Counted from the first letter of the stretch, positions 935 to 49,413 are shown. The stretch is DNA of 50,886 nucleotides from Nemertoderma westbladi (GCA_032718475.1 JAUCBJ010009160.1:1-50886); one strand, 5' to 3'. The notes: generated by a model from the letters alone, not told the origin. A program made the numbers and translations.

Positions 935-1027
935 CGAATTATCCGGGACCGAATTGTCCGGGACCGAATTATCCTAGGACCGAATTGTCCTAGGACCGAA
1001 TTGTCCGGGACCAAATTGTCCGGTTCC
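935..1027. repeat. 15-16-bp tandem repeat (GGGACCGAATTGTCC, about 5-6 copies) ending in CCCGGTTCC; possibly the terminal sub-repeat of a foldback/MITE-type DNA element
   Basis: Units seen directly. The transposon-end interpretation is inference; no partner inverted end was found in the window. Confidence 0.7.
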
Positions 1028-1118
1028 TGATAGCAACTTTTTAGTGCTTTTGGTGATTGGTGAATGTTCTAGAACATTAGTAGAGATATTTTTTATGGTA
1101 GCTAGTGTTAGCTGGTAG

Positions 1119-4100
1119 CTGTTCTTACCCAAGGTCGTGTCTGTCCTTACCCAAGGTCGTGTCTGTCCTTACCCAAGGTCGTGTCTGTCCTTACCCAAGG
1201 TCGTGTCTGTCCTTACCCAAGGTCGTGTATGTCCTTACCCAAGGTCGTGTCTGTCCTCACCCAAGGTCGTGTCTGTCCTTACCCAAGGTCGTGTCTGTCC
1301 TTACCCAAGGTCGTGTCTGTCCTTACCCAAGGTCGTGTCTGTCCTTACCCAAGGTCGTGTCTGTCCTCACCCAAGGTCGTGTCTGTCCTTACCCAAGGTC
1401 GTGTCTGTCCTTACCCAAGGTCGTGTCTGTCCTTACCCAAGGTCGTGTCTGTCCTTACCCAAGGTCGTGTCTGTCCTTACCCAAGGTCGTGTCTGTCCTC
1501 ACCCAAGGTCGTGTCTGTCCTTACCCAAGGTCGTGTCTGTCCTTACCCAAGGTCGTGTCTATCCTTACCCAAGGTCGTGTCTGTCCTCACCCAAGGTCGT
1601 GTCTGTCCTCACCCAAGGTCGTGTCTGTCCTTACCCAAGGTCGTGTCTATCCTTACCCAAGGTCGTGTCTGTCCTCACCCAAGGTCGTGTCTGTCCTTAC
1701 CCAAGGTCGTGTCTGTCCTTACCCAAGGTCGTGTCTGTCCTTACCCAAGGTCGTGTCTGTCCTTACCCAAGGTCGTGTCTGTCCTTACCCAAGGTCGTGT
1801 CTGTCCTTACCCAAGGTCGTGTCTGTCCTTACCCAAGGTCGTGTCTGTCCTTACCCAAGGTCGTGTCTGTCCTTACCCAAGGTCGTGTCTGTCCTCACCC
1901 AAGGTCGTGTCTGTCCTTACCCAAGGTCGTGTCTGTCCTTACCCAAGGTCGTGTCTGTCCTTACCCAAGGTCGTGTCTGTCCTTACCCAAGGTCGTGTCT
2001 GTCCTTACCCAAGGTCGTGTCTGTCCTTACCCAAGGTCGTGTCTGTCCTTACCCAAGGTCGTGTCTGTCCTTACCCAAGGTCGTGTCTGTCCTTACCCAA
2101 GGTCGTGTCTGTCCTTACCCAAGGTCGTGTCTGTCCTTACCCAAGGTCGTGTCTGTCCTTACCCAAGATCGTGTCTGTCCTTACCCAAGATCGTGTCTGT
2201 CCTTACCCAAGGTCGTGTCTGTCCTTACCCAAGGTCGTGTCTGTCCTTACCCAAGGTCGTGTCTGTCCTTACCCAAGGTCGTGTCTGTCCTTACCCAAGG
2301 TCGTGTCTGTCCTTACCCAAGGTCGTGTCTGTCCTTACCCAAGGTCGTGTCTGTCCTTACCCAAGGTCGTGTCTGTCCTTACCCAAGGTCGTGTCTGTCC
2401 TTACCCAAGGTCGTGTCTGTCCTTACCCAAGGTCGTGTCTGTCCTTACCCAAGGTCGTGTCTGTCCTTACCCAAGGTCGTGTCTATCCTTACCCAAGGTC
2501 GTGTCTGTCCTTACCCAAGGTCGTGTCTGTCCTCACCCAAGGTCGTGTCTGTCCTTACCCAAGGTCGTGTCTATCCTTACCCAAGGTCGTGTCTGTCCTT
2601 ACCCAAGGTCGTGTCTGTCCTTACCCAAGGTCGTGTCTGTCCTTACCCAAGGTCGTGTCTGTCCTTACCCAAGGTCGTGTCTGTCCTTACCCAAGGTCGT
2701 GTCTGTCCTTACCCAAGGTCGTGTCTGTCCTCACCCAAGGTCGTGTCTATCCTTACCCAAGGTCGTGTCTATCCTTACCCAAGGTCGTGTCTATCCTTAC
2801 CCAAGGTCGTGTCTATCCTTACCCAAGGTCGTGCCTGTCCTTACCCAAGGTCGTGTCTATCCTTACCCAAGGTCGTGTCTGTCCTTACCCAAGGTCGTGT
2901 CTGTCCTTACCCAAGGTCGTGTCTGTCCTTACCCAAGGTCGTGTCTGTCCTTACCCAAGGTCGTGTCTGTCCTTACCCAAGATCGTGTCTGTCCTTACCC
3001 AAGATCGTGTCTGTCCTTACCCAAGGTCGTGTCTGTCCTTACCCAAGGTCGTGTCTGTCCTTACCCAAGGTCGTGTCTGTCCTTACCCAAGGTCGTGTCT
3101 GTCCTTACCCAAGGTCGTGTCTGTCCTTACCCAAGGTCGTGTCTGTCCTTACCCAAGGTCGTGTCTGTACTTACCCAAGGTCGTGTCTGTCCTTACCCAA
3201 GGTCGTGTCTGTCCTTACCCAAGGTCGTGTCTGTCCTTACCCAAGGTCGTGTCTGTCCTTACCCAAGGTCGTGTCTGTCCTTACCCAAGGTCGTGTCTGT
3301 CCTTACCCAAGGTCGTGTCTGTCCTTACCCAAGGTCGTGTCTGTCCTTACCCAAGGTCGTGTCTGTCCTTACCCAAGGTCGTGTCTATCCTTACCCAAGG
3401 TCGTGTCTATCCTTACCCAAGGTCGTGTCTGTCCTTACCCAAGGTCGTGTCTATCCTTACCCAAGGTCGTGTCTATCCTTACCCAAGGTCGTGTCTATCC
3501 TTACCCAAGGTCGTGTCTATCCTTACCCAAGGTCGTGTCTGTCCTTACCCAAGGTCGTGTCTGTCCTTACCCAAGGTCGTGTCTGTCCTTACCCAAGGTC
3601 GTGTCTGTCCTTACCCAAGGTCGTGTCTGTCCTCACCTAAGGTCGTGTCTGTCCTTACCCAAGGTCGTGTCTATCCTTACCCAAGGTCGTGTCTGTCCTT
3701 ACCCAAGGTCGTGTCTGTCCTTACCCAAGGTCGTGTCTGTCCTTACCCAAGGTCGTGTCTGTCCTTACCCAAGGTCGTGTCTGTCCTTACCCAAGGTCGT
3801 GTCTGTCCTTACCCAAGGTCGTGTCTGTCCTTACCCAAGGTCGTGTCTGTCCTTACCCAAGGTCGTGTCTGTCCTTACCCAAGGTCGTGTCTGTCCTTAC
3901 CCAAGGTCGTGTCTGTCCTTACCCAAGGTCGTGTCTGTCCTTACCCAAGGTCGTGTCTGTCCTTACCCAAGGTCGTGTCTGTCCTTACAAAAGGTCGTGT
4001 CTGTCCTTACACAAGGTCGTGTCTGTCCTTACCCAAGGTCGTGTCTGTCCTTACCCAAGGTCGTGTCTGTCCTTACCCAAGGTCGTGTCTATCCTTACCC

Positions 4101-7100
4101 AAGGTCGTGTCTGTCCTTACCCAAGTTCGTGTCTATCCTTACCCAAGGTCGTGTATGTCCTTACCCAAGGTCGTGTCTGTCCTTACCCAAGGTCGTGTCT
4201 ATCCTTACCCAAGGTCGTGTCTATCCATACCCAAGGTCGTGTCTATCCTTACCCAAGGTCGTGTCTGTCCTTACCCAAGGTCGTGTCTGTCCTTACCCAA
4301 TGTCGTGTATGTCCTTACCCAAGGTCGTGTCTGTCCTTACCCAAGGTCGTGTCTATCCTTACCCAAGGTCGTGTCTATCCTTACCCAAGGTCGTGTCTAT
4401 CCTTACCCAAGGTCGTGTCTGTCCTTACCGAAGGTCGTGTCTGTCCTTACCCAAGGTCGTGTCTGTCCTTACCCAAGGTCGTGTCTGTCCTTACCCAAGG
4501 TCGTGTCTGTCCTTACCCAAGGTCGTGTCTGTCCTTACCCAAGGTCGTGTCTATCCTCACCTAAGGTTGTGTCTGTCCTTACCCAAGGTCGTGTATGTCC
4601 TTACCCAAGGTCGTGTATGTCCTCACCCAAGGTCGTGTCTGTCCTTACCCAAGGTCGTGTCTGTCCTTACCCAAGGTCGTGTCTGTCCTTACCCAAGGTC
4701 GTGTCTGTCCTTACCCAAGGTCGTGTCTGTCCTTACCCAAGGTCGTGTCTGTCCTTACCCAAGGTCGTGTCTGTCCTTACCCAAGGTCGTGTCTGTCCTT
4801 ACCCAAGGTCGTGTCTGTCCTTACCCAAGGTCGTGTCTGTCCTTACCCAAGGTCGTGTCTGTCCTTACCCAAGGTCGTGTCTGTCCTTACCCAAGGTCGT
4901 GTCTATCCTTACCCAAGGTCGTGTCTATCCTTACCCAAGGTCGTGTCTATCCTTACCCAAGGTCGTGTCTATCCTTACCCAAGGTCGTGTCTGTCCTTAC
5001 CCAAGGTCGTGTCTATCCTTACCCAAGGTCGTGTCTGTCCTTACCCAAGGTCGTGTCTGTCCTTACCCAAGGTCGTGTCTGTCCTTACCCAAGGTCGTGT
5101 CTGTCCTTACCCAAGGTCGTGTCTGTCCTTACCCAAGATCGTGTCTGTCCTTACCCAAGATCGTGTCTGTCCTTACCCAAGGTCGTGTCTGTCCTTACCC
5201 AAGGTCGTGTCTGTCCTTACCCAAGGTCGTGTCTGTCCTTACCCAAGGTCGTGTCTGTCCTTACCCAAGGTCGTGTCTGTCCTTACCCAAGGTCGTGTCT
5301 GTCCTTACCCAAGGTCGTGTCTGTACTTACCCAAGGTCGTGTCTGTCCTTACCCAAGGTCGTGTCTGTCCTTACCCAAGGTCGTGTCTGTCCTTACCCAA
5401 GGTCGTGTCTGTCCTTACCCAAGGTCGTGTCTGTCCTTACCCAAGGTCGTGTCTGTCCTTACCCAAGGTCGTGTCTGTCCTTACCCAAGGTCGTGTCTGT
5501 CCTTACCCAAGGTCGTGTCTGTCCTTACCCAAGGTCGTGTCTATCCTTACCCAAGGTCGTGTCTATCCTTACCCAAGGTCGTGTCTGTCCTTACCCAATG
5601 TCGTGTCTATCCTTACCCAAGGTCGTGTCTATCCTTACCCAAGGTCGTGTCTATCCTTACCCAAGGTCGTGTCTATCCTTACCCAAGGTCGTGTCTGTCC
5701 TTACCCAAGGTCGTGTCTGTCCTTACCCAAGGTCGTGTCTGTCCTTACCCAAGGTCGTGTCTGTCCTTACCCAAGGTCGTGTCTGTCCTCACCTAAGGTC
5801 GTGTCTGTCCTTACCCAAGGTCGTGTCTATCCTTACCCAAGGTCGTGTCTGTCCTTACCCAAGGTCGTGTCTGTCCTTACCCAAGGTCGTGTCTGTCCTT
5901 ACCCAAGGTCGTGTCTGTCCTTACCCAAGGTCGTGTCTGTCCTTACCCAAGGTCGTGTCTGTCCTTACCCAAGGTCGTGTCTGTCCTTACCCAAGGTCGT
6001 GTCTGTCCTTACCCAAGGTCGTGTCTGTCCTTACCCAAGGTCGTGTCTGTCCTTACCCAAGGTCGTGTCTGTCCTTACCCAAGGTCGTGTCTGTCCTTAC
6101 CCAAGGTCGTGTCTGTCCTTACCCAAGGTCGTGTCTGTCCTTACAAAAGGTCGTGTCTGTCCTTACACAAGGTCGTGTCTGTCCTTACCCAAGGTCGTGT
6201 CTGTCCTTACCCAAGGTCGTGTCTGTCCTTACCCAAGGTCGTGTCTATCCTTACCCAAGGTCGTGTCTGTCCTTACCCAAGTTCGTGTCTATCCTTACCC
6301 AAGGTCGTGTATGTCCTTACCCAAGGTCGTGTCTGTCCTTACCCAAGGTCGTGTCTATCCTTACCCAAGGTCGTGTCTATCCATACCCAAGGTCGTGTCT
6401 ATCCTTACCCAAGGTCGTGTCTGTCCTTACCCAAGGTCGTGTCTGTCCTTACCCAATGTCGTGTATGTCCTTACCCAAGGTCGTGTCTGTCCTTACCCAA
6501 GGTCGTGTCTATCCTTACCCAAGGTCGTGTCTATCCTTACCCAAGGTCGTGTCTATCCTTACCCAAGGTCGTGTCTGTCCTTACCGAAGGTCGTGTCTGT
6601 CCTTACCCAAGGTCGTGTCTGTCCTTACCCAAGGTCGTGTCTGTCCTTACCCAAGGTCGTGTCTGTCCTTACCCAAGGTCGTGTCTGTCCTTACCCAAGG
6701 TCGTGTCTATCCTCACCTAAGGTTGTGTCTGTCCTTACCCAAGGTCGTGTATGTCCTTACCCAAGGTCGTGTATGTCCTCACCCAAGGTCGTGTCTGTCC
6801 TTACACAAGGTCGTGTCTGTCCTTACCCAAGGTCGTGTCTGTCCTTACCCAAGGTCGTGTCTGTCCTTACCCAAGGTCGTGTCTGTCCTTACCCAAGGTC
6901 GTGTCTGTCCTTACCCAAGGTCGTGTCTGTCCTTACCCAAGGTCGTGTCTGTCCTTACCCAAGGTCGTGTCTGTCCTTACCCAAGGTCGTGTCTGTCCTT
7001 ACCCAAGGTCGTGTCTGTCCTTACCCAAGGTCGTGTCTGTCCTTACCCAAGGTCGTGTCTGTCCTTACCCAAGGTCGTGTCTGTCCTTACCCAAGGTCGT

Positions 7101-10100
7101 GTCTGTCCTTACCCAAGGTCGTGTCTATCCTTACCCAAGGTCGTGTCTGTCCTTACCCAAGGTCGTGTCTGTCCTTACCCAAGGTCGTGTCTGTCCTTAC
7201 CCAAGGTCGTGTCTGTCCTTACCCAAGGTCGTGTCTGTCCTTACCCAAGGTCGTGTCTGTCCTTACCCAAGGTCGTGTCTGTCCTTACCCAAGGTCGTGT
7301 CTGTCCTTACCCAAGGTCGTGTCTGTCCTTACCCAAGGTCGTGTCTGTCCTTACCCAAGGTCGTGTCTATCCTTACCCAAGGTCGTGTCTGTCCTTACCC
7401 AAGGTCGTGTCTGTCCTTACCCAAGGTCGTGTCTGTCCTTACCCAAGGTCGTGTCTATCCTTACCCAAGGTCGTGTCTGTCCTTACCCAAGGTCGTGTCT
7501 GTCCTTACCCAAGGTCGTGTCTGTCCTTACCCAAGGTCGTGTCTGTCCTTACCCAAGGTCGTGTCTGTCCTTACCCAAGGTCGTGTCTGTCCTTACCCAA
7601 GGTCGTGTCTGTCCTTACCCAAGGTCGTGTCTATCCTTACCCAAGGTCGTGTCTATCCTTACCCAAGGTCGTGTCTATCCTTACCCAAGGTCGTGTCTAT
7701 CCTTACCCAAGGTCGTGCCTGTCCTTACCCAAGGTCGTGTCTATCCTTACCCAAGGTCGTGTCTGTCCTTACCCAAGGTCGTGTCTGTCCTTACCCAAGG
7801 TCGTGTCTGTCCTTACCCAAGGTCGTGTCTGTCCTTACCCAAGGTCGTGTCTGTCCTTACCCAAGATCGTGTCTGTCCTTACCCAAGATCGTGTCTGTCC
7901 TTACCCAAGGTCGTGTCTGTCCTTACCCAAGGTCGTGTCTGTCCTTACCCAAGGTCGTGTCTGTCCTTACCCAAGGTCGTGTCTGTCCTTACCCAAGGTC
8001 GTGTCTGTCCTTACCCAAGGTCGTGTCTGTCCTTACCCAAGGTCGTGTCTGTCCTTACCCAAGGTCGTGTCTGTCCTTACCCAAGGTCGTGTCTGTCCTT
8101 ACCCAAGGTCGTGTCTGTCCTTACCCAAGGTCGTGTCTGTCCTTACCCAAGGTCGTGTCTGTCCTTACCCAAGGTCGTGTCTGTCCTTACCCAAGGTCGT
8201 GTCTGTCCTTACCCAAGGTCGTGTCTGTCCTTACCCAAGGTCGTGTCTGTCCTTACCCAAGGTCGTGTCTATCCTTACCCAAGGTCGTGTCTATCCTTAC
8301 CCAAGGTCGTGTCTGTCCTTACCCAAGGTCGTGTCTATCCTTACCCAAGGTCGTGTCTGTCCTTACCCAAGGTCGTGTCTGTCCTTACCCAAGGTCGTGT
8401 CTGTCCTTACCCAAGGTCGTGTCTGTCCTTACCCAAGGTCGTGTCTGTCCTTACCCAAGGTCGTGTCTGTCCTTACCCAAGGTCGTGTCTGTCCTTACCC
8501 AAGGTCGTGTCTGTCCTCACCCAAGGTCGTGTCTGTCCTTACCCAAGGTCGTGTCTATCCTTACCCAAGGTCGTGTCTGTCCTTACCCAAGGTCGTGTCT
8601 GTCCTTACCCAAGGTCGTGTCTGTCCTTACCCAAGGTCGTGCCTGTCCTTACCCAAGGTCGTGTCTGTCCTTACCCAAGGTCGTGTCTGTCCTTACCCAA
8701 GGTCGTGTCTATCCTTACCCAAGGTCGTGTCTATCCTTACCCAAGGTCGTGTCTATCCTTACCCAAGGTCGTGTCTATCCTTACCCAAGGTCGTGCCTGT
8801 CCTTACCCAAGGTCGTGTCTATCCTTACCCAAGGTCGTGTCTGTCCTTACCCAAGGTCGTGTCTGTCCTTACCCAAGGTCGTGTCTGTCCTTACCCAAGG
8901 TCGTGTCTGTCCTTACCCAAGGTCGTGCCTGTCCTTACCCAAGATCGTGTCTGTCCTTACCCAAGATCGTGTCTGTCCTTACCCAAGGTCGTGTCTGTCC
9001 TTACCCAAGGTCGTGTCTGTCCTTACCCAAGGTCGTGTCTGTCCTTACCCAAGGTCGTGTCTGTCCTTACCCAAGGTCGTGTCTGTCCTTACCCAAGGTC
9101 GTGTCTGTCCTTACCCAAGGTCGTGTCTGTACTTACCCAAGGTCGTGTCTGTCCTTACCCAAGGTCGTGTCTGTCCTTACCCAAGGTCGTGTCTGTCCTT
9201 ACCCAAGGTCGTGTCTGTCCTTACCCAAGGTCGTGTCTGTCCTTAACCAAGGTCGTGTCTGTCCTTACCCAAGGTCGTGTCTGTCCTTACCCAAGGTCGT
9301 GTCTGTCCTTACCCAAGGTCGTGTCTGTCCTTACCCAAGGTCGTGTCTATCCTTACCCAAGGTCGTGTCTATCCTTACCCAAGGTCGTGTCTGTCCTTAC
9401 CCAAGGTCGTGTCTATCCTTACCCAAGGTCGTGTCTATCCTTACCCAAGGTCGTGTCTATCCTTACCCAAGGTCGTGTCTATCCTTACCCAAGGTCGTGT
9501 CTGTCCTTACCCAAGGTCGTGTCTGTCCTTACCCAAGGTCGTGTCTGTCCTTACCCAAGGTCGTGTCTATCCTTACCCAAGGTCGTGTCTATCCTTACCC
9601 AAGGTCGTGTCTATCCTTACCCAAGGTCGTGTCTGTCCTTACCCAAGGTCGTGTCTGTCCTTACCCAAGGTCGTGTCTATCCTTACCCAAGGTCGTGTCT
9701 ATCCTTACCCAAGGTCGTGTCTATCATTACCCAAGGTCGTGTCTGTCCTTACCCAAGGTCGTGTCTGTCCTTACCCAAGGTCGTGTCTGTCCTTACCCAA
9801 GGTCGTGCCTGTCCTTACCCAAGGTCGTGTCTGTCCTTACCCAAGGTCGTGTCTGTCCTTACCCAAGGTCGTGTCTATCCTTACCCAAGGTCGTGTCTAT
9901 CTTTACCCAAGGTCGTGTCTATCCTTACCCAAGGTCGTGTCTATCCTTACCCAAGGTCGTGTCTATCCTTACCCAAGGTCGTGTCTATCCTTACCCAAGG
10001 TCGTGTCTATCCTTACCCAAGGTCGTGTCTATCCTTACCCAAGGTCGTGCCTGTCCTTACCCAAGGTCGTGTCTATCCTTACCCAAGGTCGTGTCTGTCC

Positions 10101-13100
10101 TTACCCAAGGTCGTGTCTGTCCTTACCCAAGGTCGTGTCTGTCCTTACCCAAGGTCGTGTCTGTCCTTACCCAAGGTCGTGCCTGTCCTTACCCAAGATC
10201 GTGTCTGTCCTTACCCAAGATCGTGTCTGTCCTTACCCAAGGTCGTGTCTGTCCTTACCCAAGGTCGTGTCTGTCCTTACCCAAGGTCGTGTCTGTCCTT
10301 ACCCAAGGTCGTGTCTGTCCTTACCCAAGGTCGTGTCTGTCCTTACCCAAGGTCGTGTCTGTCCTTACCCAAGGTCGTGTCTGTACTTACCCAAGGTCGT
10401 GTCTGTCCTTACCCAAGGTCGTGTCTGTCCTTACCCAAGGTCGTGTCTGTCCTTACCCAAGGTCGTGTCTGTCCTTACCCAAGGTCGTGTCTGTCCTTAC
10501 CCAAGGTCGTGTCTGTCCTTACCCAAGGTCGTGTCTGTCCTTACCCAAGGTCGTGTCTGTCCTTACCCAAGGTCGTGTCTGTCCTTACCCAAGGTCGTGT
10601 CTATCCTTACCCAAGGTCGTGTCTATCCTTACCCAAGGTCGTGTCTGTCCTTACCCAAGGTCGTGTCTATCCTTACCCAAGGTCGTGTCTATCCTTACCC
10701 AAGGTCGTGTCTATCCTTACCCAAGGTCGTGTCTATCCTTACCCAAGGTCGTGTCTGTCCTTACCCAAGGTCGTGTCTGTCCTTACCCAAGGTCGTGTCT
10801 GTCCTTACCCAAGGTCGTGTCTATCCTTACCCAAGGTCGTGTCTATCCTTACCCAAGGTCGTGTCTATCCTTACCCAAGGTCGTGTCTGTCCTTACCCAA
10901 GGTCGTGTCTGTCCTTACCCAAGGTCGTGTCTATCCTTACCCAAGGTCGTGTCTATCCTTACCCAAGGTCGTGTCTATCATTACCCAAGGTCGTGTCTGT
11001 CCTTACCCAAGGTCGTGTCTGTCCTTACCCAAGGTCGTGTCTGTCCTTACCCAAGGTCGTGCCTGTCCTTACCCAAGGTCGTGTCTGTCCTTACCCAAGG
11101 TCGTGTCTGTCCTTACCCAAGGTCGTGTCTATCCTTACCCAAGGTCGTGTCTATCTTTACCCAAGGTCGTGTCTATCCTTACCCAAGGTCGTGTCTATCC
11201 TTACCCAAGGTCGTGTCTATCCTTACCCAAGGTCGTGTCTGTCCTTACCCAAGGTCGTGTCTGTCCTTACCCAAGGTCGTGTCTGTCCTTACCCAAGGTC
11301 GTGCCTGTCCTTACCCAAGGTCGTGTCTATCCTTACCCAAGGTCGTGTCTGTCCTTACCCAAGGTCGTGTCTGTCCTTACCCAAGGTCGTGTCTGTCCTT
11401 ACCCAAGGTCGTGTCTATCCTTACCCAAGGTCGTGTCTGTCCTTACCCAAGGTCGTGTCTGTCCTTACCCAAGGTCGTGTCTGTCCTTACCCAAGGTCGT
11501 GTCTGTCCTTACCCAAGGTCGTGTCTGTCCTTACCCAAGGTCGTGTCTGTCCTTACCCAAGGTCGTGTCTGTCCTTACCCAAGGTCGTGTCTGTCCTTAC
11601 CCAAGGTCGTGTCTGTCCTTACCCAAGGTCGTGTCTATCCTTACCCAAGGTCGTGTCTGTCCTTACCCAAGGTCGTGTCTGTCCTTACCCAAGGTCGTGT
11701 CTGTCCTTACCCAAGGTCGTGTCTGTCCTTACCCAAGGTCGTGCCTGTCCTTACCCAAGATCGTGTCTGTCCTTACCCAAGATCGTGTCTGTCCTTACCC
11801 AAGGTCGTGTCTGTCCTTACCCAAGGTCGTGTCTGTCCTTACCCAAGGTCGTGTCTGTCCTTACCCAAGGTCGTGTCTGTCCTTACCCAAGGTCGTGTCT
11901 GTCCTTACCCAAGGTCGTGTCTGTCCTTACCCAAGGTCGTGTCTGTACTTACCCAAGGTCGTGTCTGTCCTTACCCAAGGTCGTGTCTGTCCTTACCCAA
12001 GGTCGTGTCTGTCCTTACCCAAGGTCGTGTCTGTCCTTACCCAAGGTCGTGTCTGTCCTTAACCAAGGTCGTGTCTGTCCTTACCCAAGGTCGTGTCTGT
12101 CCTTACCCAAGGTCGTGTCTGTCCTTACCCAAGGTCGTGTCTGTCCTTACCCAAGGTCGTGTCTATCCTTACCCAAGGTCGTGTCTATCCTTACCCAAGG
12201 TCGTGTCTGTCCTTACCCAAGGTCGTGTCTATCCTTACCCAAGGTCGTGTCTATCCTTACCCAAGGTCGTGTCTATCCTTACCCAAGGTCGTGTCTATCC
12301 TTACCCAAGGTCGTGTCTGTCCTTACCCAAGGTCGTGTCTGTCCTTACCCAAGGTCGTGTCTGTCCTTACCCAAGGTCGTGTCTATCCTTACCCAAGGTC
12401 GTGTCTATCCTTACCCAAGGTCGTGTCTATCCTTACCCAAGGTCGTGTCTGTCCTTACCCAAGGTCGTGTCTGTCCTTACCCAAGGTCGTGTCTATCCTT
12501 ACCCAAGGTCGTGTCTATCCTTACCCAAGGTCGTGTCTATCATTACCCAAGGTCGTGTCTGTCCTTACCCAAGGTCGTGCCTGTCCTTACCCAAGGTCGT
12601 GTCTGTCCTTACCCAAGGTCGTGTCTGTCCTTACCCAAGGTCTTGTCTATCCTTACCCAAGGTCGTGTCTATCTTTACCCAAGGTCGTGTCTATCCTTAC
12701 CCAAGGTCGTGTCTATCCTTACCCAAGGTCGTGTCTATCCTTACCCAAGGTCGTGTCTATCCTTACCCAAGGTCGTGTCTATCCTTACCCAAGGTCGTGT
12801 CTATCCTTACCCAAGGTCGTGCCTGTCCTTACCCAAGGTCGTGTCTATCCTTACCCAAGGTCGTGTCTGTCCTTACCCAAGGTCGTGTCTGTCCTTACCC
12901 AAGGTCGTGTCTGTCCTTACCCAAGGTCGTGTCTGTCCTTACCCAAGGTCGTGCCTGTCCTTACCCAAGATCGTGTCTGTCCTTACCCAAGATCGTGTCT
13001 GTCCTTACCCAAGGTCGTGTCTGTCCTTACCCAAGGTCGTGTCTGTCCTTACCCAAGGTCGTGTCTGTCCTTACCCAAGGTCGTGTCTGTCCTTACCCAA

Positions 13101-28100: not shown

Positions 28101-31100
28101 CCAAGGTCGTGTCTGTCCTTACCCAAGGTCGTGCCTGTCCTTACCCAAGGTCGTGTCTGTCCTTACCCAAGGTCGTGTCTGTCCTTACCCAAGGTCGTGT
28201 CTGTCCTTACCCAAGGTCGTGCCTGTCCTCACCCAAGGTCGTGTCTGTCCTTACCCAAGGTCGTGTCTGTCCTTACCCAAGGTCGTGTCTGTCCTTACCC
28301 AACGTCGTGTCTGTCCTTACCCAAGGTCGTGTCTGTCCTTACCCAAGGTCGTGTCTGTCCTTACCCAAGGTCGTGTCTATCCTTACCCAAGGTCGTGTCT
28401 ATCCTTACCCAAGGTCGTGTCTATCCTTACCCAAGATCGTGTCTGTCCTTACCCAAGATCGTGTCTGTCCTTACCCAAGGTCGTGTCTGTCCTTACCCAA
28501 GGTCGTGTCTGTCCTTACCCAAGGTCGTGTCTGTCCTTACCCAAGGTCGTGTCTGTCCTCACCCAAGGTCGTGTCTATCCTTACCCAAAGTCGTGTCTAT
28601 CCTTACCCAAGGTCGTGTCTGTCCTTACCCAAGGTCGTGTCTGTCCTTACCCAAGGTCGTGTCTGTCCTTACCCAAAGTCGTGTCTGTCCTTACCCAAGG
28701 TCGTGTCTGTCCTTACCCAAGGTCGTGTCTGTCCTTACCCAAGGTCGTGTCTGTCCTTACCCAAGGTCGTGTCTGTCCTTACCCAAGGTCGTGTCTGTCC
28801 TTACCCAAGGTCGTGTCTGTCCTTACCCAAGGTCGTGTCTGTCCTTACCCAAGATCGTGTCTGTCCTTACCCAAGGTCGTGTCTGTCCTTACCCAATGTC
28901 GTGTCTGTCCTCACCTAAGGTCGTGTCTGTCCTTACCCAAGGTCGTGTATGTCCTTACCCAAGGTCGTGTCTGTCCTCACCCAAGGTCGTGTCTGTCCTT
29001 ACACAAGGTCGTATCTGTCCTTACCCAAGGTCGTGTCTGTCCTTACCCAAGGTCGTGTCTGTCCTTACCCAAGGTCGTGTCTGTCCTTACCCAAGGACGT
29101 GTCTGTCCTTACCCAAGATCGTGTCTGTCCTTACCCAAGGTCGTGTCTGTCCTTACCCAAGGTCGTGTCTGTCCTTACCCAAGGTCGTGTCTGTCCTTAC
29201 CCAAGGTCGTGACTGTCCTTACCCAAGGTCGTGTCTGTCCTTACCCAAGGTCGTGTCTGTCCTTACCCAAGGTCGTGTCTGTCATTACCCAAGGTCGTGT
29301 CTGTCCTTACCCAAGGTCGTGTCTGTCCTTACCCAAGGTCGTGTCTGTCCTTACCCAAGGTCGTGTCTATCCTTACCCAAGGTCGTGTCTATCCTTACCC
29401 AAGGTCGTGTCTATCCTTACCCAAGATCGTGTCTGTCCTTACCCAAGATCGTGTCTGTCCTTACCCAAGGTCGTGTCTGTCCTTACCCAAGGTCGTGTCT
29501 GTCCTTACCCAAGGTCGTGACTGTCCTTACCCAAGGTCGTGTTTGTCCTTACCCAAGGTCGTGTCTGTCATTACCCAAGGTCGTGTCTGTCCTTACCCAA
29601 GGTCGTGTCTGTCCTTACCCAAGGTCGTGTCTGTCCTTACCCAAGGTCGTGACTGTCCTTACCCAAGGTCGTGTCTGTCATTACCCAAGGTCGTGTCTGT
29701 CCTTACCCAAGGTCGTGTCTGTCATTACCCAAGGTCGTGTCTGTCCTTACCCAAGGTCGTGTCTGTCCTTACCCAAGGTCGTGACTGTCCTTACCCAAGG
29801 TCGTGTCTGTCCTTACCCAAGGTCGTGTCTGTAATTACCCAAGGTCGTGACTGTCCTTACCCAAGGTCGTGTCTGTCCTTACCCAAGGTCGTGTCTGTCA
29901 TTACCCAAGGTCGTGTCTGTCCTTACCCAAGGTCGTGTCTGTCCTTACCCAAGGTCGTGTCTATCCTTACCCAAGGTCGTGTCTATCCTTACCCAAGGTC
30001 GTGTCTATCCTTACCCAAGGTCTTGTCTGTCCTTACCCAAGGTCGTGTCTATCCTTACCCAAGGTCGTGTCTATCCTTACCCAAGATCGTGTCTGTCCTT
30101 ACCCAAGGTCGTGTCTGTCCTTACCCAAGATCGTGTCTGTCCTTACCCAAGGTCGTGTCTGTCCTTACCCAAGGTCGTGTCTGTCCTTACCCAAGGTCGT
30201 GTCTGTCCTTACCCAAGGTCGTGTCTGTCCTTACCCAAGGTCGTGTCTGTCCTCACCTAAGGTCGTGTCTGTCCTTACCCAAGGTCGTGTCTATCCTTAC
30301 CCAAGGTCGTGTCTGTCCTTACCCAAGGTCGTGTCTGTCCTTACCCAAGGTCGTGTCTGTCCTTACCCAAGGTCGTGTCTGTCCTTACCCAAGGTCGTGT
30401 CTGTCCTTACCCAAGGTCGTGTCTGTCCTTACCCAAGGTCGTGTCTGTCCTTACCCAAGGTCGTGTCTGTCCTTACCCAAGGTCGTGTCTGTCCTTACCC
30501 AAGGTCGTGTCTGTCCTTACCCAAGGTCGTGTCTGTCCTTACCCAAGGTCGTGTCTGTCCTTACCCAAGGTCGTGTCTGTCCTTACCCAAGGTCGTGTCT
30601 GTCCTTACAAAAGGTCGTGTCTGTCCTTACACAAGGTCGTGTCTGTCCTTACCCAAGGTCGTGTCTGTCCTTACCCAAGGTCGTGTCTGTCCTTACCCAA
30701 GGTCGTGTCTATCCTTACCCAAGGTCGTGTCTGTCCTTACCCAAGTTCGTGTCTATCCTTACCCAAGGTCGTGTATGTCCTTACCCAAGGTCGTGTCTGT
30801 CCTTACCCAAGGTCGTGTCTATCCTTACCCAAGGTCGTGTCTATCCATACCCAAGGTCGTGTCTATCCTTACCCAAGGTCGTGTCTGTCCTTACCCAAGG
30901 TCGTGTCTGTCCTTACCCAATGTCGTGTATGTCCTTACCCAAGGTCGTGTCTGTCCTTACCCAAGGTCGTGTCTATCCTTACCCAAGGTCGTGTCTATCC
31001 TTACCCAAGGTCGTGTCTATCCTTACCCAAGGTCGTGTCTGTCCTTACCGAAGGTCGTGTCTGTCCTTACCCAAGGTCGTGTCTGTCCTTACCCAAGGTC

Positions 31101-34100
31101 GTGTCTGTCCTTACCCAAGGTCGTGTCTGTCCTTACCCAAGGTCGTGTCTGTCCTTACCCAAGGTCGTGTCTATCCACACCTAAGGTTGTGTCTGTCCTT
31201 ACCCAAGGTCGTGTATGTCCTTACCCAAGGTCGTGTATGTCCTCACCCAAGGTCGTGTCTGTCCTTACACAAGGTCGTGTCTGTCCTTACCCAAGGTCGT
31301 GTCTGTCCTTACCCAAGGTCGTGTCTGTCCTTACCCAAGGTCGTGTCTGTCCTTACCCAAGGTCGTGTCTGTCCTTACCCAAGGTCGTGTCTGTCCTTAC
31401 CCAAGGTCGTGTCTGTCCTTACCCAAGGTCGTGTCTGTCCTTACCCAAGGTCGTGTCTGTCCTTACCCAAGGTCGTGTCTGTCCTTACCCAAGGTCGTGT
31501 CTGTCCTTACCCAAGGTCGTGTCTGTCCTTACCCAAGGTCGTGTCTGTCCTTACCCAAGGTCGTGTCTGTCCTTACCCAAGGTCGTGTCTATCCTTACCC
31601 AAGGTCGTGTCTGTCCTTACCCAAGGTCGTGTCTGTCCTTACCCAAGGTCGTGTCTGTCCTTACCCAAGGTCGTGTCTGTCCTTATCCAAGGTCGTGTCT
31701 GTCCTTACCCAAGGTCGTGTCTGTCCTTACCCAAGGTCGTGTCTGTCCTTACCCAAGGTCGTGTCTGTCCTTACCCAAGGTCGTGTCTGTCCTTACCCAA
31801 GGTCGTGTCTGTCCTTACCCAAGGTCGTGTCTGTCCTTACCCAAGGTCGTGTCTGTCCTTACCCAAGGTCGTGTCTGTCCTTACCCAAGGTCGTGTCTGT
31901 CCTTACCCAAGGTCGTGTCTGTCCTTACCCAAGGTCGTGTCTGTCATTACCCAAGGTCGTGTCTGTCCTTACCCAAGGTCGTGTCTGTACTTACCCAAGG
32001 TCGTGTCTGTCCTTACCCAAGGTCGTGTCTGTCCTTACCCAAGGTCGTGTCTGTCCTTACCCAAGGTCGTGTCTGTCCTTACCCAAGGTCGTGTCTGTCC
32101 TTACCCAAGGTCGTGTCTGTCCTTACCCAAGGTCGTGTCTGTCCTTACCCAAGGTCGTGTCTGTCCTTACCCAAGGTCGTGTCTGTCCTTACCCAAGGTC
32201 GTGTCTGTCCTTACCCAAGGTCGTGTCTGTCCTTACCCAAGGTCGTGTCTGTCCTTACCCAAGGTCGTGTCTGTCCTTACCCAAGGTCGTGTCTGTCCTT
32301 ACCCAAGGTCGTGTCTGTCCTTACCCAAGGTCGTGTCTGTCCTTACCCAAGGTCGTGTCTGTCCTTACCCAAGGTCGTGTCTGTCCTTACACAAGGTCGT
32401 GTCTGTCCTTACCCAAGGTCGTGTCTATCCTTACCCAAGGTCGTGTCTGTCCTTACCCAAGGTCGTGTCTGTCCTTACCCAATGTCGTGTCTGTCCTTAC
32501 CCAAGGTCGTGTCTGTCCTTACCCAAGGTCGTGTCTGTCCTTACCCAAGGTCGTGTCTGTCCTTACCCAAGGTCGTGTCTGTCCTTACCCAAGGTCGTGT
32601 CTATCCTTACCCAAGGTCGTGTCTGTCCTTACCCAAGGTCGTGTCTGTCCTTACCCAAGGTCGTGTCTGTCCTTACCCAAGGTCGTGTCTGTCCTTACCC
32701 AAGGTCGTGTCTGTCCTTACCCAAGGTCGTGTCTGTCCTTACCCAAGGTCGTGTCTGTCCTTACCTAAGGTCGTGTCTGTCCTTACCCAAGGTCGTGTCT
32801 GTCCTTACCCAAGGTCGTGTCTGTCCTTACCCAAGGTCGTGTCTGTCCTTACCCAAGGTCGTGTCTGTCCTTACCCAAGGTCGTGTCTGTCCTTACCCAA
32901 GGTCGTGTCTGTCCTTACCCAAGGTCGTGTCTGTCCTTACCCAAGGTCGTGACTGTCCTTACCCAAGGTCGTGACTGTCCTTACCCAAGGTCGTGACTGT
33001 CCTTACCCAAGGTCGTGTCTGTCCTTACCCAAGGTCGTGTCTGTCCTTACCCAAGGTCGTGTCTGTCCTTACCCAAGGTCGTGTCTGTCCTTACCCAAGG
33101 TCGTGTCTGTCCTTACCCAAGGTCGTGTCTGTCCTTACCCAAGGTCGTGACTGTCCTTACCCAAGGTCGTGACTGTCCTTACCCAAGGTCGTGTATGTCC
33201 TTACCCAAGGTCGTGTCTGTCCTTACCCAAGGTCGTGTCTGTCCTTACCCAAGGTCGTGTCTGTCCTTACCCAAGGTCGTGTCTATCCTTACCCAAGGTC
33301 GTGTCTATCCTTACCCAAGGTCGTGTCTATCCTTACCCAAGGTCGTGTCTGTCCTTACCCAAGGTCGTGTCTGTCCTTACCCAAGGTCGTGTCTGTCCTT
33401 ACCCAAGGTCGTGTCTGTCCTTACCCAAGGTCGTGTCTGTCCTTACCCAAGGTCGTGTCTGTCCTTACCCAAGGTCGTGTCTATCCTTACCCAAGGTCGT
33501 GTCTGTCCTTACCCAAGGTCGTGTCTGTCCTTACCCAAGGTCGTGTCTGTCCTTACCCAAGGTCGTGTCTGTCCTTACCCAAGGTCGTGTCTGTCCTTAC
33601 CCAAGGTCGTGTCTGTCCTTACCCAAGGTCGTGTCTGTCCTTACCTAAGGTCGTGTCTGTCCTTACCCAAGGTCGTGTCTGTCCTTACCCAAGGTCGTGT
33701 CTGTCCTTACCCAAGGTCGTGTCTGTCCTTACCCAAGGTCGTGTCTGTCCTTACCCAAGGTCGTGTCTGTCCTTACCCAAGGTCGTGTCTGTCCTTACCC
33801 AAGGTCGTGTCTGTCCTTACCCAAGGTCGTGTCTGTCCTTACCCAAGGTCGTGTCTGTCCTTACCCAAGGTCGTGTCTGTCCTTACAAAAGGTCGTGTCT
33901 GTCCTTACACAAGGTCGTGTCTGTCCTTACCCAAGGTCGTGTCTGTCCTTACCCAAGGTCGTGTCTGTCCTTACCCAAGGTCGTGTCTATCCTTACCCAA
34001 GGTCGTGTCTATCCTTACCCAAGGTCGTGTCTATCCTTACCCAAGGTCGTGTCTGTCCTTACCCAAGGTCGTGTCTGTCCTTACCCAAGGTCGTGTCTGT

Positions 34101-37100
34101 CCTTACCCAAGGTCGTGTCTGTCCTTACCCAAGGTCGTGTCTGTCCTTACCCAAGGTCGTGTCTGTCCTTACCCAAGGTCGTGTCTGTCCTTACCCAAGG
34201 TCGTGTATGTCCTTACCCAAGGTCGTGTCTGTCCTTACCCAAGGTCGTGTCTGTCCTTACCCAAGGTCGTGTCTGTCCTTACCCAAGGTCGTGTCTATCC
34301 TTACCCAAGGTCGTGTCTATCCTTACCCAAGGTCGTGTCTATCCTTACCCAAGGTCGTGTCTGTCCTTACCCAAGGTCGTGTCTGTCCTTACCCAAGGTC
34401 GCGTCTGTCCTTACCCAAGGTCGTGTCTGTCCTTACCCAAGGTCGTGTCTGTCCTTACCCAAGGTCGTGTCTGTCCTTACCCAAGGTCGTGTCTGTCCTT
34501 ACCCAAGGTCGTGTCTGTCCTTAACCAAGGTCGTGTCTGTCCTTACCTAAGGTCGTGTCTGTCCTTACCCAAGGTCGTGTCTGTCCTTACCCAAGGTCGT
34601 GTCTGTCCTCACCCAAGGTCGTGTCTATCCTTACCCAAGGTCGTGTCTGTCCTTACCCAAGGTCGTTTCTGTCCTTACCCAAGGTCGTGTCTGTCCTTAC
34701 CCAAGGTCGTGTCTGTCCTTACCCAAGGTCGTGACTGTCCTTACCCAAGGTCGTGACTGTCCTTACCCAAGGTCGTGACTGTCCTTACCCAAGGTCGTGT
34801 CTGTCCTTACAAAAGGTCGTGTCTGTCCTTACACAAGGTCGTGTCTGTCCTTACCCAAGGTCGTGTCTGTCCTTACCCAAGGTCGTGTCTGTCCTTACCC
34901 AAGGTCGTGTCTATCCTTACCCAAGGTCGTGTCTATCCTTACCCAAGGTCGTGTCTATCCTTACCCAAGGTCGTGTCTGTCCTTACCCAAGGTCGTGTCT
35001 GTCCTTACCCAAGGTCGTGTCTGTCCTTACCCAAGGTCGTGTCTGTCCTTACCCAAGGTCGTGTCTGTCCTTACCCAAGGTCGTGTCTGTCCTTACCCAA
35101 GGTCGTGTCTGTCCTTACCCAAGGTCGTGTCTGTCCTTACCCAAGGTCGTGTATGTCCTTACCCAAGGTCGTGTCTGTCCTTACCCAAGGTCGTGTCTGT
35201 CCTTACCCAAGGTCGTGTCTGTCCTTACCCAAGGTCGTGTCTATCCTTACCCAAGGTCGTGTCTATCCTTACCCAAGGTCGTGTCTATCCTTACCCAAGG
35301 TCGTGTCTGTCCTTACCCAAGGTCGTGTCTGTCCTTACCCAAGGTCGCGTCTGTCCTTACCCAAGGTCGTGTCTGTCCTTACCCAAGGTCGTGTCTGTCC
35401 TTACCCAAGGTCGTGTCTGTCCTTACCCAAGGTCGTGTCTGTCCTTACCCAAGGTCGTGTCTGTCCTTAACCAAGGTCGTGTCTGTCCTTACCTAAGGTC
35501 GTGTCTGTCCTTACCCAAGGTCGTGTCTGTCCTTACCCAAGGTCGTGTCTATCCTTACCCAAGGTCGTGTCTATCCTTACCCAAGGTCGTGTCTGTCCTT
35601 ACCCAAGGTCGTGTCTGTCCTTACCCAAGGTCGTGTCTGTCCTTACCCAAGGTCGTGTCTGTCCTTACCCAAGGTCGTGTCTATCCTTACCCAAGGTCGT
35701 GTCTGTCCTTACCCAAGGTCGTGTCTGTCCTTACCCAAGGTCGTGTCTGTCCTTACCCAAGGTCGTGTCTGTCCTTACCCAAGGTCGTGTCTGTCCTTAC
35801 CCAAGGTCGTGTCTGTCCTTACCCAAGGTCGTGTCTGTCCTTACCTAAGGTCGTGTCTGTCCTTACCTAAGGTCGTGTCTGTCCTTACCCAAGGTCGTGT
35901 CTGTCCTTACCCAAGGTCGTGTCTGTCCTTACCCAAGGTCGTGTCTGTCCTTACCCAAGGTCGTGTCTGTCCTTACCCAAGGTCGTGTCTGTCCTTACCC
36001 AAGGTCGTGTCTGTCCTTACCCAAGGTCGTGTCTGTCCTTACCCAAGGTCGTGTCTGTCCTTACCCAAGGTCGTGTCTGTCCTTACAAAAGGTCGTGTCT
36101 GTCCTTACACAAGGTCGTGTCTGTCCTTACCCAAGGTCGTGTCTGTCCTTACCCAAGGTCGTGTCTGTCCTTACCCAAGGTCGTGTCTATCCTTACCCAA
36201 GGTCGTGTCTATCCTTACCCAAGGTCGTGTCTATCCTTACCCAAGGTCGTGTCTGTCCTTACCCAAGGTCGTGTCTGTCCTTACCCAAGGTCGTGTCTGT
36301 CCTTACCCAAGGTCGTGTCTGTCCTTACCCAAGGTCGTGTCTGTCCTTACCCAAGGTCGTGTCTGTCCTTACCCAAGGTCGTGTCTGTCCTTACCCAAGG
36401 TCGTGTCTGTCCTTACCCAAGGTCGTGTATGTCCTTACCCAAGGTCGTGTCTGTCCTTACCCAAGGTCGTGTCTGTCCTTACCCAAGGTCGTGTCTGTCC
36501 TTACCCAAGGTCGTGTCTATCCTTACCCAAGGTCGTGTCTATCCTTACCCAAGGTCGTGTCTATCCTTACCCAAGGTCGTGTCTGTCCTTACCCAAGGTC
36601 GTGTCTGTCCTTACCCAAGGTCGCGTCTGTCCTTACCCAAGGTCGTGTCTGTCCTTACCCAAGGTCGTGTCTGTCCTTACCCAAGGTCGTGTCTGTCCTT
36701 ACCCAAGGTCGTGTCTGTCCTTACCCAAGGTCGTGTCTGTCCTTAACCAAGGTCGTGTCTGTCCTTACCTAAGGTCGTGTCTGTCCTTACCCAAGGTCGT
36801 GTCTGTCCTTACCCAAGGTCGTGTCTGTCCTCACCCAAGGTCGTGTCTATCCTTACCCAAGGTCGTGTCTGTCCTTACCCAAGGTCGTTTCTGTCCTTAC
36901 CCAAGGTCGTGTCTGTCCTTACCCAAGGTCGTGTCTGTCCTTACCCAAGGTCGTGACTGTCCTTACCCAAGGTCGTGACTGTCCTTACCCAAGGTCGTGA
37001 CTGTCCTTACCCAAGGTCGTGTCTGTCCTTACCCAAGGTCGTGTCTGTCCTTACCCAAGGTCGTGTCTGTCCTTACCCAAGGTCGTGTCTGTCCTTACCC

Positions 37101-37415
37101 AAGGTCGTGTCTGTCCTTACCCAAGGTCGTGTCTGTCCTTACCCAAGGTCGTGACTGTCCTTACCCAAGGTCGTGACTGTCCTTACCCAAGGTCGTGACT
37201 GTCCTTACCCAAGGTCGTGTCTGTCCTTACCCAAGGTCGTGACTGTCCTTACCCAAGGTCGTGTCTGTCCTTACCCAAGGTCGTGTCTGTCCTTACCCAA
37301 GGTCGTGTCTGTCCTTACCCAAGGTCGTGACTGTCCTTACCCAAGGTCGTGACTGTCCTTACCCAAGGTCGTGACTGTCCTTACCCAAGGTCGTGTCTGT
37401 CCTTACCCAAGGTCG
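1119..37415 (+). repeat. Giant 22-bp tandem satellite, consensus CCTTACCCAAGGTCGTGTCTGT, roughly 1,640 sequenced monomers (true length unknown because of the gap)
   Basis: Uninterrupted head-to-tail 22-mers that differ almost only by single substitutions. Starts at ctgttcttacccaagg (~1119) and ends at ...ccttacccaaggtcg|gctctcc (37415). Confidence 0.99.
14747..14846. other. Assembly gap (100 N) inside the satellite
   Basis: Exactly 100 N, a typical placeholder size. Same monomer, orientation and variant patterns on both sides. Confidence 0.99.
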
Positions 37416-38674
37416 GCTCTCCGCTGCTGCCCTCCAACTTACATAATGACTGCTTCCTCTGAGTTTGATGCCCATCAGGGAGGCTGTCAGATATAGTAGG
37501 TGGGTCTCTGTCTGACTGGTCCTGGCTAAAAGCACATCTTCCATCTTCAATGGGTGGTCTAGGCCTACGTACAGCTGCAGACCACGCCCCAGCAGCATAT
37601 GCTGCTTCAGCCTGCCAATCGCACAATCTAGTTAGCCGTATCCTCGGCCAACCCCCTTACAGACCCTCACCTTATTACAGCCATAGAAAGTCTCGCCCGT
37701 GCAGCGGAGAACCATGAATGGTCATCACCAGATAGGCTTCCTTCTCCTCTGACGCAACGCACACTCTCATGCCATTGACACAGCGAACCATCACCATTTA
37801 ATATCCACAGCTCCAAATACTCGTTCCATTGTCTCTATGCAACTCCACCTCATTAACTCATGCCGGAGATTGGCTACGTGTCATCCCATCTGCTCCACTG
37901 GGCCTTCACATATTGGATAGGGAATATCAAACTTGAGGTCGATACTGGCTGGGAATACGTATGTCTTCTGACCCATCCTCCTGCGCGGTCTGTGGGTTAG
38001 CATCGGGGAATACGTATGTCTTCCGACCCATCCTCCTGCGCGGTCTGTGGGTTAGACTGCCTGCAATACTGGCTGGGAATACGTATGTCTTCCGACCCAT
38101 CCTCCTGCGCGGTCTGTGGGTTAGCATCGGACAATTTTGGGGACCATAACATCGGATGTAGTGGGGCCAGCCACCGCATCAGCCATCACGACTCTCTCAG
38201 GGATGCAATCTTCTCTGCAGCACAATCTGCTGCTCTAACGCCCCAGAATGGAAGTGCCAGGCATTGTTGCCGGATCGCGCAGCCGCCCAGCTGATGTATA
38301 TTTTCCTATCTGGTGCAGAGGGCAACCCATGGCCTTGGATGTTACAGGTATATCTAGTCTCCAGGCCCTCACCATTCAGGGATCAGCCCGCCACCCGGGC
38401 CAGCTCTCACTGTTGCCAAGGAACGCAAGACAGCCGCCCACGCATCAAACTGCCGTTCCTCTGGGGTGGGGTTCACCTCACTTATAGTCGAAGACCTGGG
38501 GGGCTGGGAGTCCGAATCGGCACTCTGCATCCGGGAAGTTGGGCGGCTTCTAGCTCTCCGTCGACAACCCAGCAGATATTCCAGCGCCTGTCAGTCTGTC
38601 TGTGGCGCGGTAACGCCGCAATGTGGCTCCGCCGCGTAACCACAGTCTCACCATTCATTGACGGAGTACAGTAA
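37388..38674 (+). mobile_element. 5'-truncated, frameshifted non-LTR retrotransposon with restriction-like endonuclease (CRE-like clade)
   Basis: Stitching + frames gives RSCLSLPKV/ALRCCPPTYIMTASSEFDA/IREAV/DIVGGSLSDWSWLKAHLPSSMGGLGLRTAADHAPAAY (post-RT region); HAGDWLRVIPSAPLGLHILDREY; CLQYWLG...CAVC...FGDHNIGC (CCHC knuckle); RISHHDSLRD; SRSRPADVYFPIWCRGQPMALDVT (PD..D nuclease); VEDLGGW; QRLSVCLWRGNAAMW; stop at 38674. This is the canonical domain order of RLE-type LINEs. Confidence 0.88.
37942..38130 (+). repeat. Three unequal tandem copies (about 50-75 bp) of the segment encoding YWLGIRMSSDPSSCAVCGL
   Basis: GGGAATACGTATGTCTTCYGACCCATCCTCCTGCGCGGTCTGTGGGTTAG occurs at ~37951, ~38006 and ~38075. 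Confidence 0.95.
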
Positions 38675-49412: not shown

Positions 49413-49413
49413 C

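What the first reader, a model, noticed from the sequence alone, without database searches (positions are those of the whole stretch)
1119..37700. A >36-kb satellite whose 22-bp monomer is a piece of retrotransposon coding sequence, amplified exactly at the element's 5' truncation point
Seen: the last monomer (37388-37414, AGG TCG TGT CTG TCC TTA CCC AAG GTC) reads RSCLSLPKV. One base later it continues as ALRCCPPTYI...FD...DIVGGSLSDWSWLKAHLPSSMGGLGLR. No upstream element sequence is visible left of the array (1030-1118). Knowledge (recalled, not searched): CRE-like RLE elements of early-branching animals carry LLRSCLxLPKxxxxLRxCPP at this position after the RT core. Inference: the satellite is the amplified 5'-most 22 nt of the inserted cDNA, not a pre-existing target. 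The seed is bounded by a direct microhomology (AGGTCG...AGGTCG) and contains a hairpin (CCTT-ACCC-AAGG), suggesting that the RT stalled and repeatedly re-copied a short template window (telomerase-like stuttering) before later expansion to ~1,640 or more copies.
Basis: partly seen in the sequence, partly recalled or inferred. Interest (0 to 1): 0.92.

Follow-up and report, generated by a model that had tools for sequence, protein, structure and literature searches.

The report
Giant satellite grown from retrotransposon gene
A 22-letter piece of a dead jumping gene's coding sequence is repeated about 1,650 times in a row and is still attached to the rest of that gene; it likely began with a copying slip between two short matching sequences and then grew by ordinary DNA duplication, a striking but known way for satellite DNA to arise.

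Summary
A 22-bp array of about 1,650 units fills 1119-37415 (one 100-N scaffold gap inside). Its unit is coding sequence of a decayed RT + restriction-like-endonuclease non-LTR retrotransposon: 111 of 120 long relatives carry the motif at this place, and a sister-copy contig joins upstream coding sequence to the unit in frame. The mechanism offered is only partly supported. The claimed AGGTCG microhomology is produced by the repeat itself; the likely true seed is a 7-nt direct repeat (GTCGTGT) 22 nt apart. The hairpin is at chance level (z = -0.02). The left junction is not shown to be the insertion's 5' end (no convincing target-site duplication). Exact block duplications up to 1.5 kb show that the bulk grew by DNA-level recombination. 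The region is prone to this: the same copy has a private internal triplication, and a neighbouring LINE end is repeated 8 times. Open point: the array starts mid-unit without the upstream seed repeat, so either upstream DNA was deleted later (about 50%) or the first repeats existed before insertion ended (RT realignment about 28%, repeat-bearing parent about 15%). Verdict: new, unusually clear member of the known class of transposon-derived satellites.

The parts
1119..37415 (+). Satellite array, 22-bp unit taken from the element's coding strand, about 1,650 units, with irregular higher-order blocks
14747..14846 (.). 100-N scaffold gap inside the array; the same variant patterns occur on both sides
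1030..1118 (+). T-rich left flank, not element coding sequence; the array starts mid-unit without the upstream 7-nt repeat; the first unit is the only one with a C-to-T change at unit position 5
37390..37415 (+). Last unit, matching the sister copy's coding sequence (S-C-L-S-L-P-K-V); 5 nt are missing right after it
37416..38674 (+). Decayed 3' part of the ORF of an RT + restriction-like-endonuclease non-LTR retrotransposon (region after the RT core, through to the stop at 38672-38674); about ten frame changes and several stops
37942..38130 (+). Internal triplication (55-69-nt units) private to this copy; contigs of all four runs skip about 37934-38057
   Evidence: (table 5)
38106..38340 (+). 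CCHC knuckle, HHD, E, RPAD and D of the restriction-like endonuclease (in two frames)
   Evidence: motif spacing compared with PMC12857005
38675..38960 (+). T-rich 3' untranslated region; its end is uncertain (about 38745 or about 38960), no clear poly(A) tail
46657..47181 (-). Internal comparison: 8 x 66-bp array made of the last codons, stop and tail of a second, RTE-like LINE (47186-47974, RVT_1)

Best explanation
The satellite is a 22-bp piece of the coding strand of a decayed non-LTR retrotransposon, likely first duplicated by slippage between two 7-nt direct repeats after the copy had inserted, grown by DNA-level block duplication, and likely left at the copy's 5' edge by a later deletion of the upstream DNA. 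Steps: (1) unit derives from the element ORF just after the RT core: shown. (2) The parent sequence carries GTCGTGT twice, 22 nt apart: upstream copy shown in a sister contig, downstream copy inferred. [quoted passage not shown] (4) Growth to more than 36 kb by unequal exchange or gene conversion in blocks of 0.5-1.5 kb: shown as a pattern, mechanism inferred. (5) Edges eroded: 5 nt lost on the right (shown), upstream element and first partial unit lost on the left (inferred).
For: Motif in 111 of 120 long relatives, all 120 with an RT domain. Sister contigs in run X1: one carries 238 letters of upstream sequence whose last 30 read DSQMETALL in frame with the unit; another runs from 37390 through the junction with 5 more letters. 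A 7-nt flanking repeat is the commonest size reported for this route (PMC3389668, passages), and such repeats occur at 2.9-7.1 per kb in three related ORFs. Exact repeated blocks up to 68 units against 14-17 in 3 shuffles; 987 of 1650 units lie in exact blocks of 25 or more; only 5 of 31 substitution types occur once. The same copy has a private internal triplication; 41% of the window outside the array is tandem DNA. In a related family 0 of 10 distinct 5' junctions carry a tandem repeat, whereas private internal duplications occur in 3 of 15 loci (a fourth lies in inserted DNA). No convincing target-site duplication, although two truncated relatives show 7-10-bp ones. The right edge did suffer a deletion.
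Against: It needs a second event (the upstream deletion) for which there is no direct evidence. The array does sit at the visible 5' edge: a random internal seed would do so in about 2% of cases in a 1.3-kb copy without such a deletion (estimate). The unit appears unchanged relative to the sister copy although sister contigs differ from this copy by 5-14% elsewhere, which mildly favours early amplification; this rests on inference, as the letters were not shown. The window's other LINE-derived array also lies at an element end. A near-match of 11 of 13 letters between the left junction and 38722-38734 (p about 0.04) could be a target-site duplication. The related-family control is small and from another organism. 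Neither of the window's own junctions was seen in the contigs laid (holes prove nothing).
Confidence: 0.5

Rival explanations
1. During insertion the element's RT reached the upstream GTCGTGT, realigned its cDNA end on the downstream copy in the same RNA, copied the 22 nt again (one or a few times), stopped mid-unit and was joined to the target; DNA-level recombination later made the long array.
For: One event explains both the position at the 5' edge and the missing upstream repeat at the left junction. The template has the geometry needed (7-nt repeat, 22-nt window). Unit apparently unmutated against the sister copy (inferred). Candidate 13-nt target duplication with overlap into the first unit, p about 0.04. 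Microhomology and extra-template joins are known at 5' junctions of R1/R2 (PMC2718515, PMC11331408, passages); RT slippage is proposed for 3' simple repeats of RTE elements (PMC2887409, passages).
Against: 0 of 10 5' junctions in a related family show it. Hairpin at chance level. The candidate duplication resembles the 3' UTR end of relatives (by eye) and other-copy contigs extend past it to about 38900, so it is probably inside the element. The passages read list anneal, join, snap-back and extra-template junctions, not internal reiteration.
Confidence: 0.28
2. A parent copy already carried a short array at this site (born by DNA slippage); it was transcribed and retrotransposed, and the new copy was 5'-truncated inside the repeats.
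For: Explains the mid-unit start without a deletion or a new RT behaviour. The two X1 contigs that flank the unit do not fix the number of units between them.
Against: No contig showing several units inside an otherwise intact copy was seen; total unit count in X1 is roughly that of this one array; extra units break the frame, so the parent would need help in trans.
Confidence: 0.15
3. Processive, telomerase-like repeat addition by the RT made a large part of the array in one insertion event.
For: Only the template geometry; bacterial defence RTs can make tandem-repeat cDNA (PMC12632851, search listing and start of abstract only).
Against: Variants are shared in long exact blocks at distant places, which independent RT passes would not give; the copy is old and decayed while the array is 2% divergent.
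Confidence: 0.03
4. The element inserted into an older, unrelated satellite, or the array is an assembly artefact.
For: A scaffold gap lies in the array; the window's own junctions were not seen in contigs.
Against: The unit encodes the family's conserved motif in register with the adjacent ORF; the repeat is present at high depth in runs of two studies; variant blocks match across the gap.
Confidence: 0.04

Closest known systems
Transposon-derived minisatellites born on 5-10-bp flanking direct repeats (Haber and Louis model; Alu-derived minisatellites), as described in PMC3389668 and PMC6947457 (passages)
   Same: Short unit cut from a retroelement, bounded by a short direct repeat (7 nt, the commonest size reported), later expanded by slippage, conversion or unequal exchange.
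   Different: Here the array is satellite-sized (over 36 kb, about 1,650 units), the unit is protein-coding sequence of an RT-endonuclease ORF, and the upstream part of the element is missing.
Satellites derived from LINE ORFs: chicken HinfI (CR1 ORF2), Phodopus PROsat and seal Pvc20 (L1 ORF2), cetacean common satellite (L1 3' end), as listed in PMC9659126 (passages)
   Same: Satellite unit homologous to a non-LTR retrotransposon, including coding sequence.
   Different: Different clade (restriction-like-endonuclease type); the unit is only 22 bp and the parent copy is still attached in register, so the birth site can be read.
Maize CRM-derived tandem repeats (PMC3648361, passages)
   Same: Local tandem arrays born from a retrotransposon copy and amplified by DNA-level exchange.
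   Different: Those come from LTR elements with long units; short direct repeats were not found there.
CRE-clade elements (CRE1/2, SLACS, CZAR, MoTeR, FoTeR; PMC12857005, passages)
   Same: Single ORF with RT and C-terminal CCHC + restriction-like endonuclease motif spacing.
   Different: Clade membership by RT tree was not tested; a related family here shows dispersed, not site-specific, flanks.

Membership tests
Transposon-derived tandem repeat | Unit homologous to a part of a transposable element | tested here: met
   Motif in 111 of 120 long relatives; sister contig joins upstream coding sequence to the unit in frame.
Transposon-derived tandem repeat | Head-to-tail array beyond what the element itself holds | tested here: met
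   1649.9 copies; relatives have the motif once (165 motifs in 163 proteins).
Haber-Louis type minisatellite birth | Unit flanked by a 5-10-bp direct repeat in the progenitor | tested here: inconclusive
   Upstream GTCGTGT placed by the loose end; downstream copy inferred from a 5-letter gap and from a low-depth joint contig that has the full unit plus T.
Haber-Louis type minisatellite birth | Both flanking repeats kept at the array ends | tested here: not met
   Left end starts mid-unit without the repeat; right end has lost 5 nt. Needs later erosion or a seed made before the junction formed.
Non-LTR retrotransposon with restriction-like endonuclease | C-terminal CCHC knuckle followed by (R/H)HD...E...(R/K)PxD...D | tested here: met
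   CAVC-x9-H-x3-C, HHD, E, RPAD, D read across frames in the window; 93 of 120 long relatives match the pattern.
Non-LTR retrotransposon with restriction-like endonuclease | RT domain upstream in the same ORF | tested here: met
   Absent from this truncated copy; present in 120 of 120 listed long relatives; weak hits of one relative to R2 proteins in the PDB.
CRE clade | Grouping with CRE1/CRE2/SLACS/CZAR in an RT tree | not testable with these tools
   No named CRE reference sequence was returned by any search. The label CRE-like is recalled.
CRE clade | Site-specific insertion into tandem genes or telomeres (typical, not universal) | tested here: inconclusive
   Target of this copy unknown; flanks of a related family differ from copy to copy.
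5'-truncated TPRT insertion with intact ends | Target-site duplication around the insertion | tested here: inconclusive
   Best candidate 11 of 13 letters, p about 0.04, probably inside the 3' UTR; 3' end not located.
Telomerase-like repeat addition | Many repeats copied independently from one RNA window | tested here: not met
   Variants shared in exact blocks up to 68 units; only the first few units could be RT-made.

The most novel reading that the evidence does not exclude
A non-LTR retrotransposon RT used a 7-nt repeat inside its own mRNA as a realignment site, as telomerase does with its template, wrote several 22-nt repeats at the moment of insertion, and thereby founded a satellite of more than 36 kb.
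Probability: 0.25. Interest if true: 0.7.

Novelty: new member of a known kind. Interest (0 to 1): 0.36.

Why it matters
How a new satellite unit is first made is usually invisible because the source is lost. Here the source is still attached in register and a sister copy without the array's damage exists in the same species, so birth, growth and edge erosion of a satellite can be read at one locus. If the seed was made by the RT, it would be a natural case of template realignment inside an mRNA, relevant to the origin of telomerase-type repeat addition and to unwanted 5' junction products of retrotransposon-based gene insertion. If it was made by DNA slippage, it is a clear textbook example rather than a new mechanism.

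Tried and rejected
No whole genome is held, so the family consensus and a genome-wide map of the unit could not be built. Exact search for the unit in metagenome contigs: 0 matches. Pfam on 5 fragments of the element: 0 families. First protein search: 1 hit among 71 candidates. The GGLG-anchored count used only 25 of 150 proteins (110 had no such anchor, the rest were too short) and was replaced by the count. Left flank as a decayed copy of the 3' UTR: local alignment not better than shuffles (p 0.13 and 0.73). Hairpin stall: rejected. AGGTCG microhomology: rejected as circular. Window's own left and right junctions were not seen among contigs of X1-X3 (13 of 14 loose ends shown); the window's alleles at about 37416-37575 were also uncovered; these holes are no evidence. 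Summed satellite depth relative to unique depth is about five times lower in X2 than in X1: length difference or library bias, not resolved. Names of relatives were nearly all missing. Three look-ups of earlier findings returned nothing. An ORF-like stretch beside the 56-bp array gave no Pfam family at cut-off. Literature searches listed no paper on a satellite from the coding region of a CRE-type element or on internal reiteration by a non-LTR RT at 5' junctions; the library lacks most subscription journals, and no supplementary files were read.

Full report
1. The array. Tandem Repeats Finder gives one array at 1119-37415, period 22, 1649.9 copies, 97% matches. Unit-by-unit decomposition gives 1650 units of 51 types; 1011 of 1642 clean units equal the consensus and mean divergence is 2.0%. 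A 100-N gap lies at 14747-14846, so 36 kb is only the assembled length. The repeat is present at high depth in contigs of runs from two studies. As a rough check only (the tool warns that depth is no copy number): the deepest listed consensus contig in X1 has 720-780 times the depth of unique flanking contigs, and consensus 31-mers occur on average 881 times in the assembled array. This fits one array of about this size, not a genome-wide satellite.

2. The neighbour. 37416-38674 is the decayed 3' part of a non-LTR retrotransposon ORF. An 82-residue fragment finds 487 relatives at E up to 0.001. A 951-residue relative finds 754 more; the 120 listed all have an RT domain, and 119 of these 120 hit the window element. 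The C-terminal CCHC knuckle and the HHD, E, RPAD, D residues have the spacing given for SLACS/CRE/MoTeR endonucleases (PMC12857005, passages), a layout shared by several clades (own knowledge), so 'CRE' stays a recalled label. The copy has about ten frame changes by reading the three frames against relatives; listed sister contigs differ from it by about 5-14%.

3. Origin of the unit: confirmed. 111 of 120 long relatives have the motif here; among these R 106, S 96, C 111, L 99, A or S 106, L 95, P 111, K 110, then one residue (V in 37), two more residues, and x-L-R. The window lacks those two residues but one base, so 5 nt are missing at the junction. Run X1 supplies the DNA test: one contig lies on 37390-37472 with 88 letters over 83 places and goes on without two further small deletions of the window copy (inferred from its overlap with the next contig); another carries 238 letters before the same phase of the unit, whose last 30 read D-S-Q-M-E-T-A-L-L by hand translation, the family consensus. 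So the unit is element coding sequence. The number of units between these two contigs is not fixed by the data; one is the simplest reading and keeps the frame.

4. In the sister copy the codon before S-C is CTG, so the AGG of the window's 'RSC' is made by the repeat junction, and AGGTCG...AGGTCG is what any array ending in a partial unit shows. The real seed is probably GTCGTGT twice, 22 nt apart: the upstream copy follows the loose end, and the downstream copy is inferred from the 5-letter gap and from a low-depth contig (6.6) that has a full unit plus T before a joint. Repeats of 7 nt or more, 10-70 nt apart, occur at 2.9-7.1 per kb in three related ORFs and about 2 per kb in this copy, so such a seed is ordinary. 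The hairpin folds no better than shuffles (z -0.02).

5. Growth. Exact repeated blocks reach 68 units (1.5 kb) and link places up to 26 kb apart and across the gap; shuffles reach 14-17 (3 shuffles); 987 of 1650 units lie in exact blocks of 25 or more with at least 4 variant units; 5 of 31 substitution types occur once. The present array was therefore built by DNA-level duplication, long after an insertion whose other parts have decayed. Unequal exchange, conversion and rolling-circle routes are the standard proposals (PMC3648361, PMC9977147, passages); which of them acted is not tested.

6. Is the left junction the insertion's 5' end? Not shown. The flank is not element sequence. The only candidate target duplication is 11 of 13 letters at 38722-38734, p about 0.04 in 300 simulations; it resembles the end of the 3' UTR in a related family (by eye) and other-copy contigs continue past it. 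That family ends in a short T-rich UTR and poly(A), with 7-10-bp duplications visible in two truncated copies. A logical point remains: the array starts mid-unit without the upstream GTCGTGT. Slippage after insertion needs that repeat, so either it was deleted later, or repeats existed before the junction formed (RT realignment, or a parent with repeats). The 5-nt loss on the right shows that edges do erode.

7. Controls. In the same copy, 37942-38130 is a private triplication far from the 5' end; contigs of all four runs skip it. Nine kb away, 8 x 66 bp repeat the last codons, stop and tail of an RTE-like LINE; this shows that LINE pieces readily become arrays here, but it too lies at an element end, which cuts both ways. 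41% of the window outside the array is tandem DNA. Of 26 related loci from metagenome contigs, 15 belong to one family; 3 run off the contig at the 5' end and 2 pairs are the same insertion, leaving 10 distinct 5' junctions, 0 with a tandem repeat; private internal duplications occur in 3 loci plus one within inserted DNA. The sample is small and from another organism.

8. What is known. Satellites from LINE ORFs are listed for chicken, hamster and seal (PMC9659126, passages). Birth on 5-10-bp flanking repeats is the Haber-Louis model, seen here only as cited in PMC3389668 and PMC6947457 (passages); the first of these finds 7 bp the commonest size. Frequent origin of satellites from retrotransposon repeats is the title claim of PMC7004042 (search listing only). 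For R1/R2 5' junctions the passages read describe microhomology, non-templated bases, snap-back and extra templates (PMC2718515, PMC11331408). Eight searches listed no report of this kind of satellite from a CRE-type ORF or of internal reiteration at 5' junctions; coverage of the library is partial and no supplements were read.

9. Verdict. The satellite is real and comes from retrotransposon coding sequence (about 95%). Its bulk is DNA-made (about 95%). The seed is most likely DNA slippage with later loss of upstream DNA (0.5), with RT realignment at insertion (0.28) and a repeat-bearing parent (0.15) open. New member of a known kind; interest 0.36; 0.7 if the RT made the seed.

Noticed in passing
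window 46657-47974 (minus strand): Decayed RTE-like LINE whose last 66 nt (final codons, stop and TAG-repeat tail) are repeated 8 times head to tail.
   Followed up: partly
window 37942-38130: Private internal triplication in the element copy, skipped by sister contigs in all four runs.
   Followed up: yes
window 38993-39016 (minus strand): A contig of run X5 has poly(T) before 38993 and an ATTAAA-type signal lies about 20 nt upstream on the minus strand: probably the 3' end of a polyadenylated transcript facing the element.
   Followed up: no
window 40342-42099, 42845-45354, 49399-49689, 49804-50246: Four more minisatellite arrays (56, 36, 42 and 63 bp); 41% of the window outside the big array is tandem DNA. 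Their sources were not identified.
   Followed up: partly
window 42092-42340 (minus strand): 83-codon open stretch running into the 56-bp array; no Pfam family at cut-off; may be an exon.
   Followed up: partly
window 935-1023: About six 15-bp repeats 100 nt left of the array, resembling a small non-autonomous element (resemblance recalled).
   Followed up: no
window 39053-39090: A short high-copy repeat: depth rises about 40-fold and contigs diverge on both sides.
   Followed up: no
protein P0021: A close relative of this eukaryotic retroelement is filed as a bacterial metagenome-assembled-genome protein, probably host contamination.
   Followed up: no
L004/L010 3914: A copy in a related family is 5'-truncated within a few codons of the same motif, with a short target duplication and no tandem repeat.
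   Followed up: partly
runs X1 and X2 on window 37366-37415: Satellite depth relative to unique depth is about five times lower in X2 than in X1: possible large length difference between individuals, or library bias.
   Followed up: no
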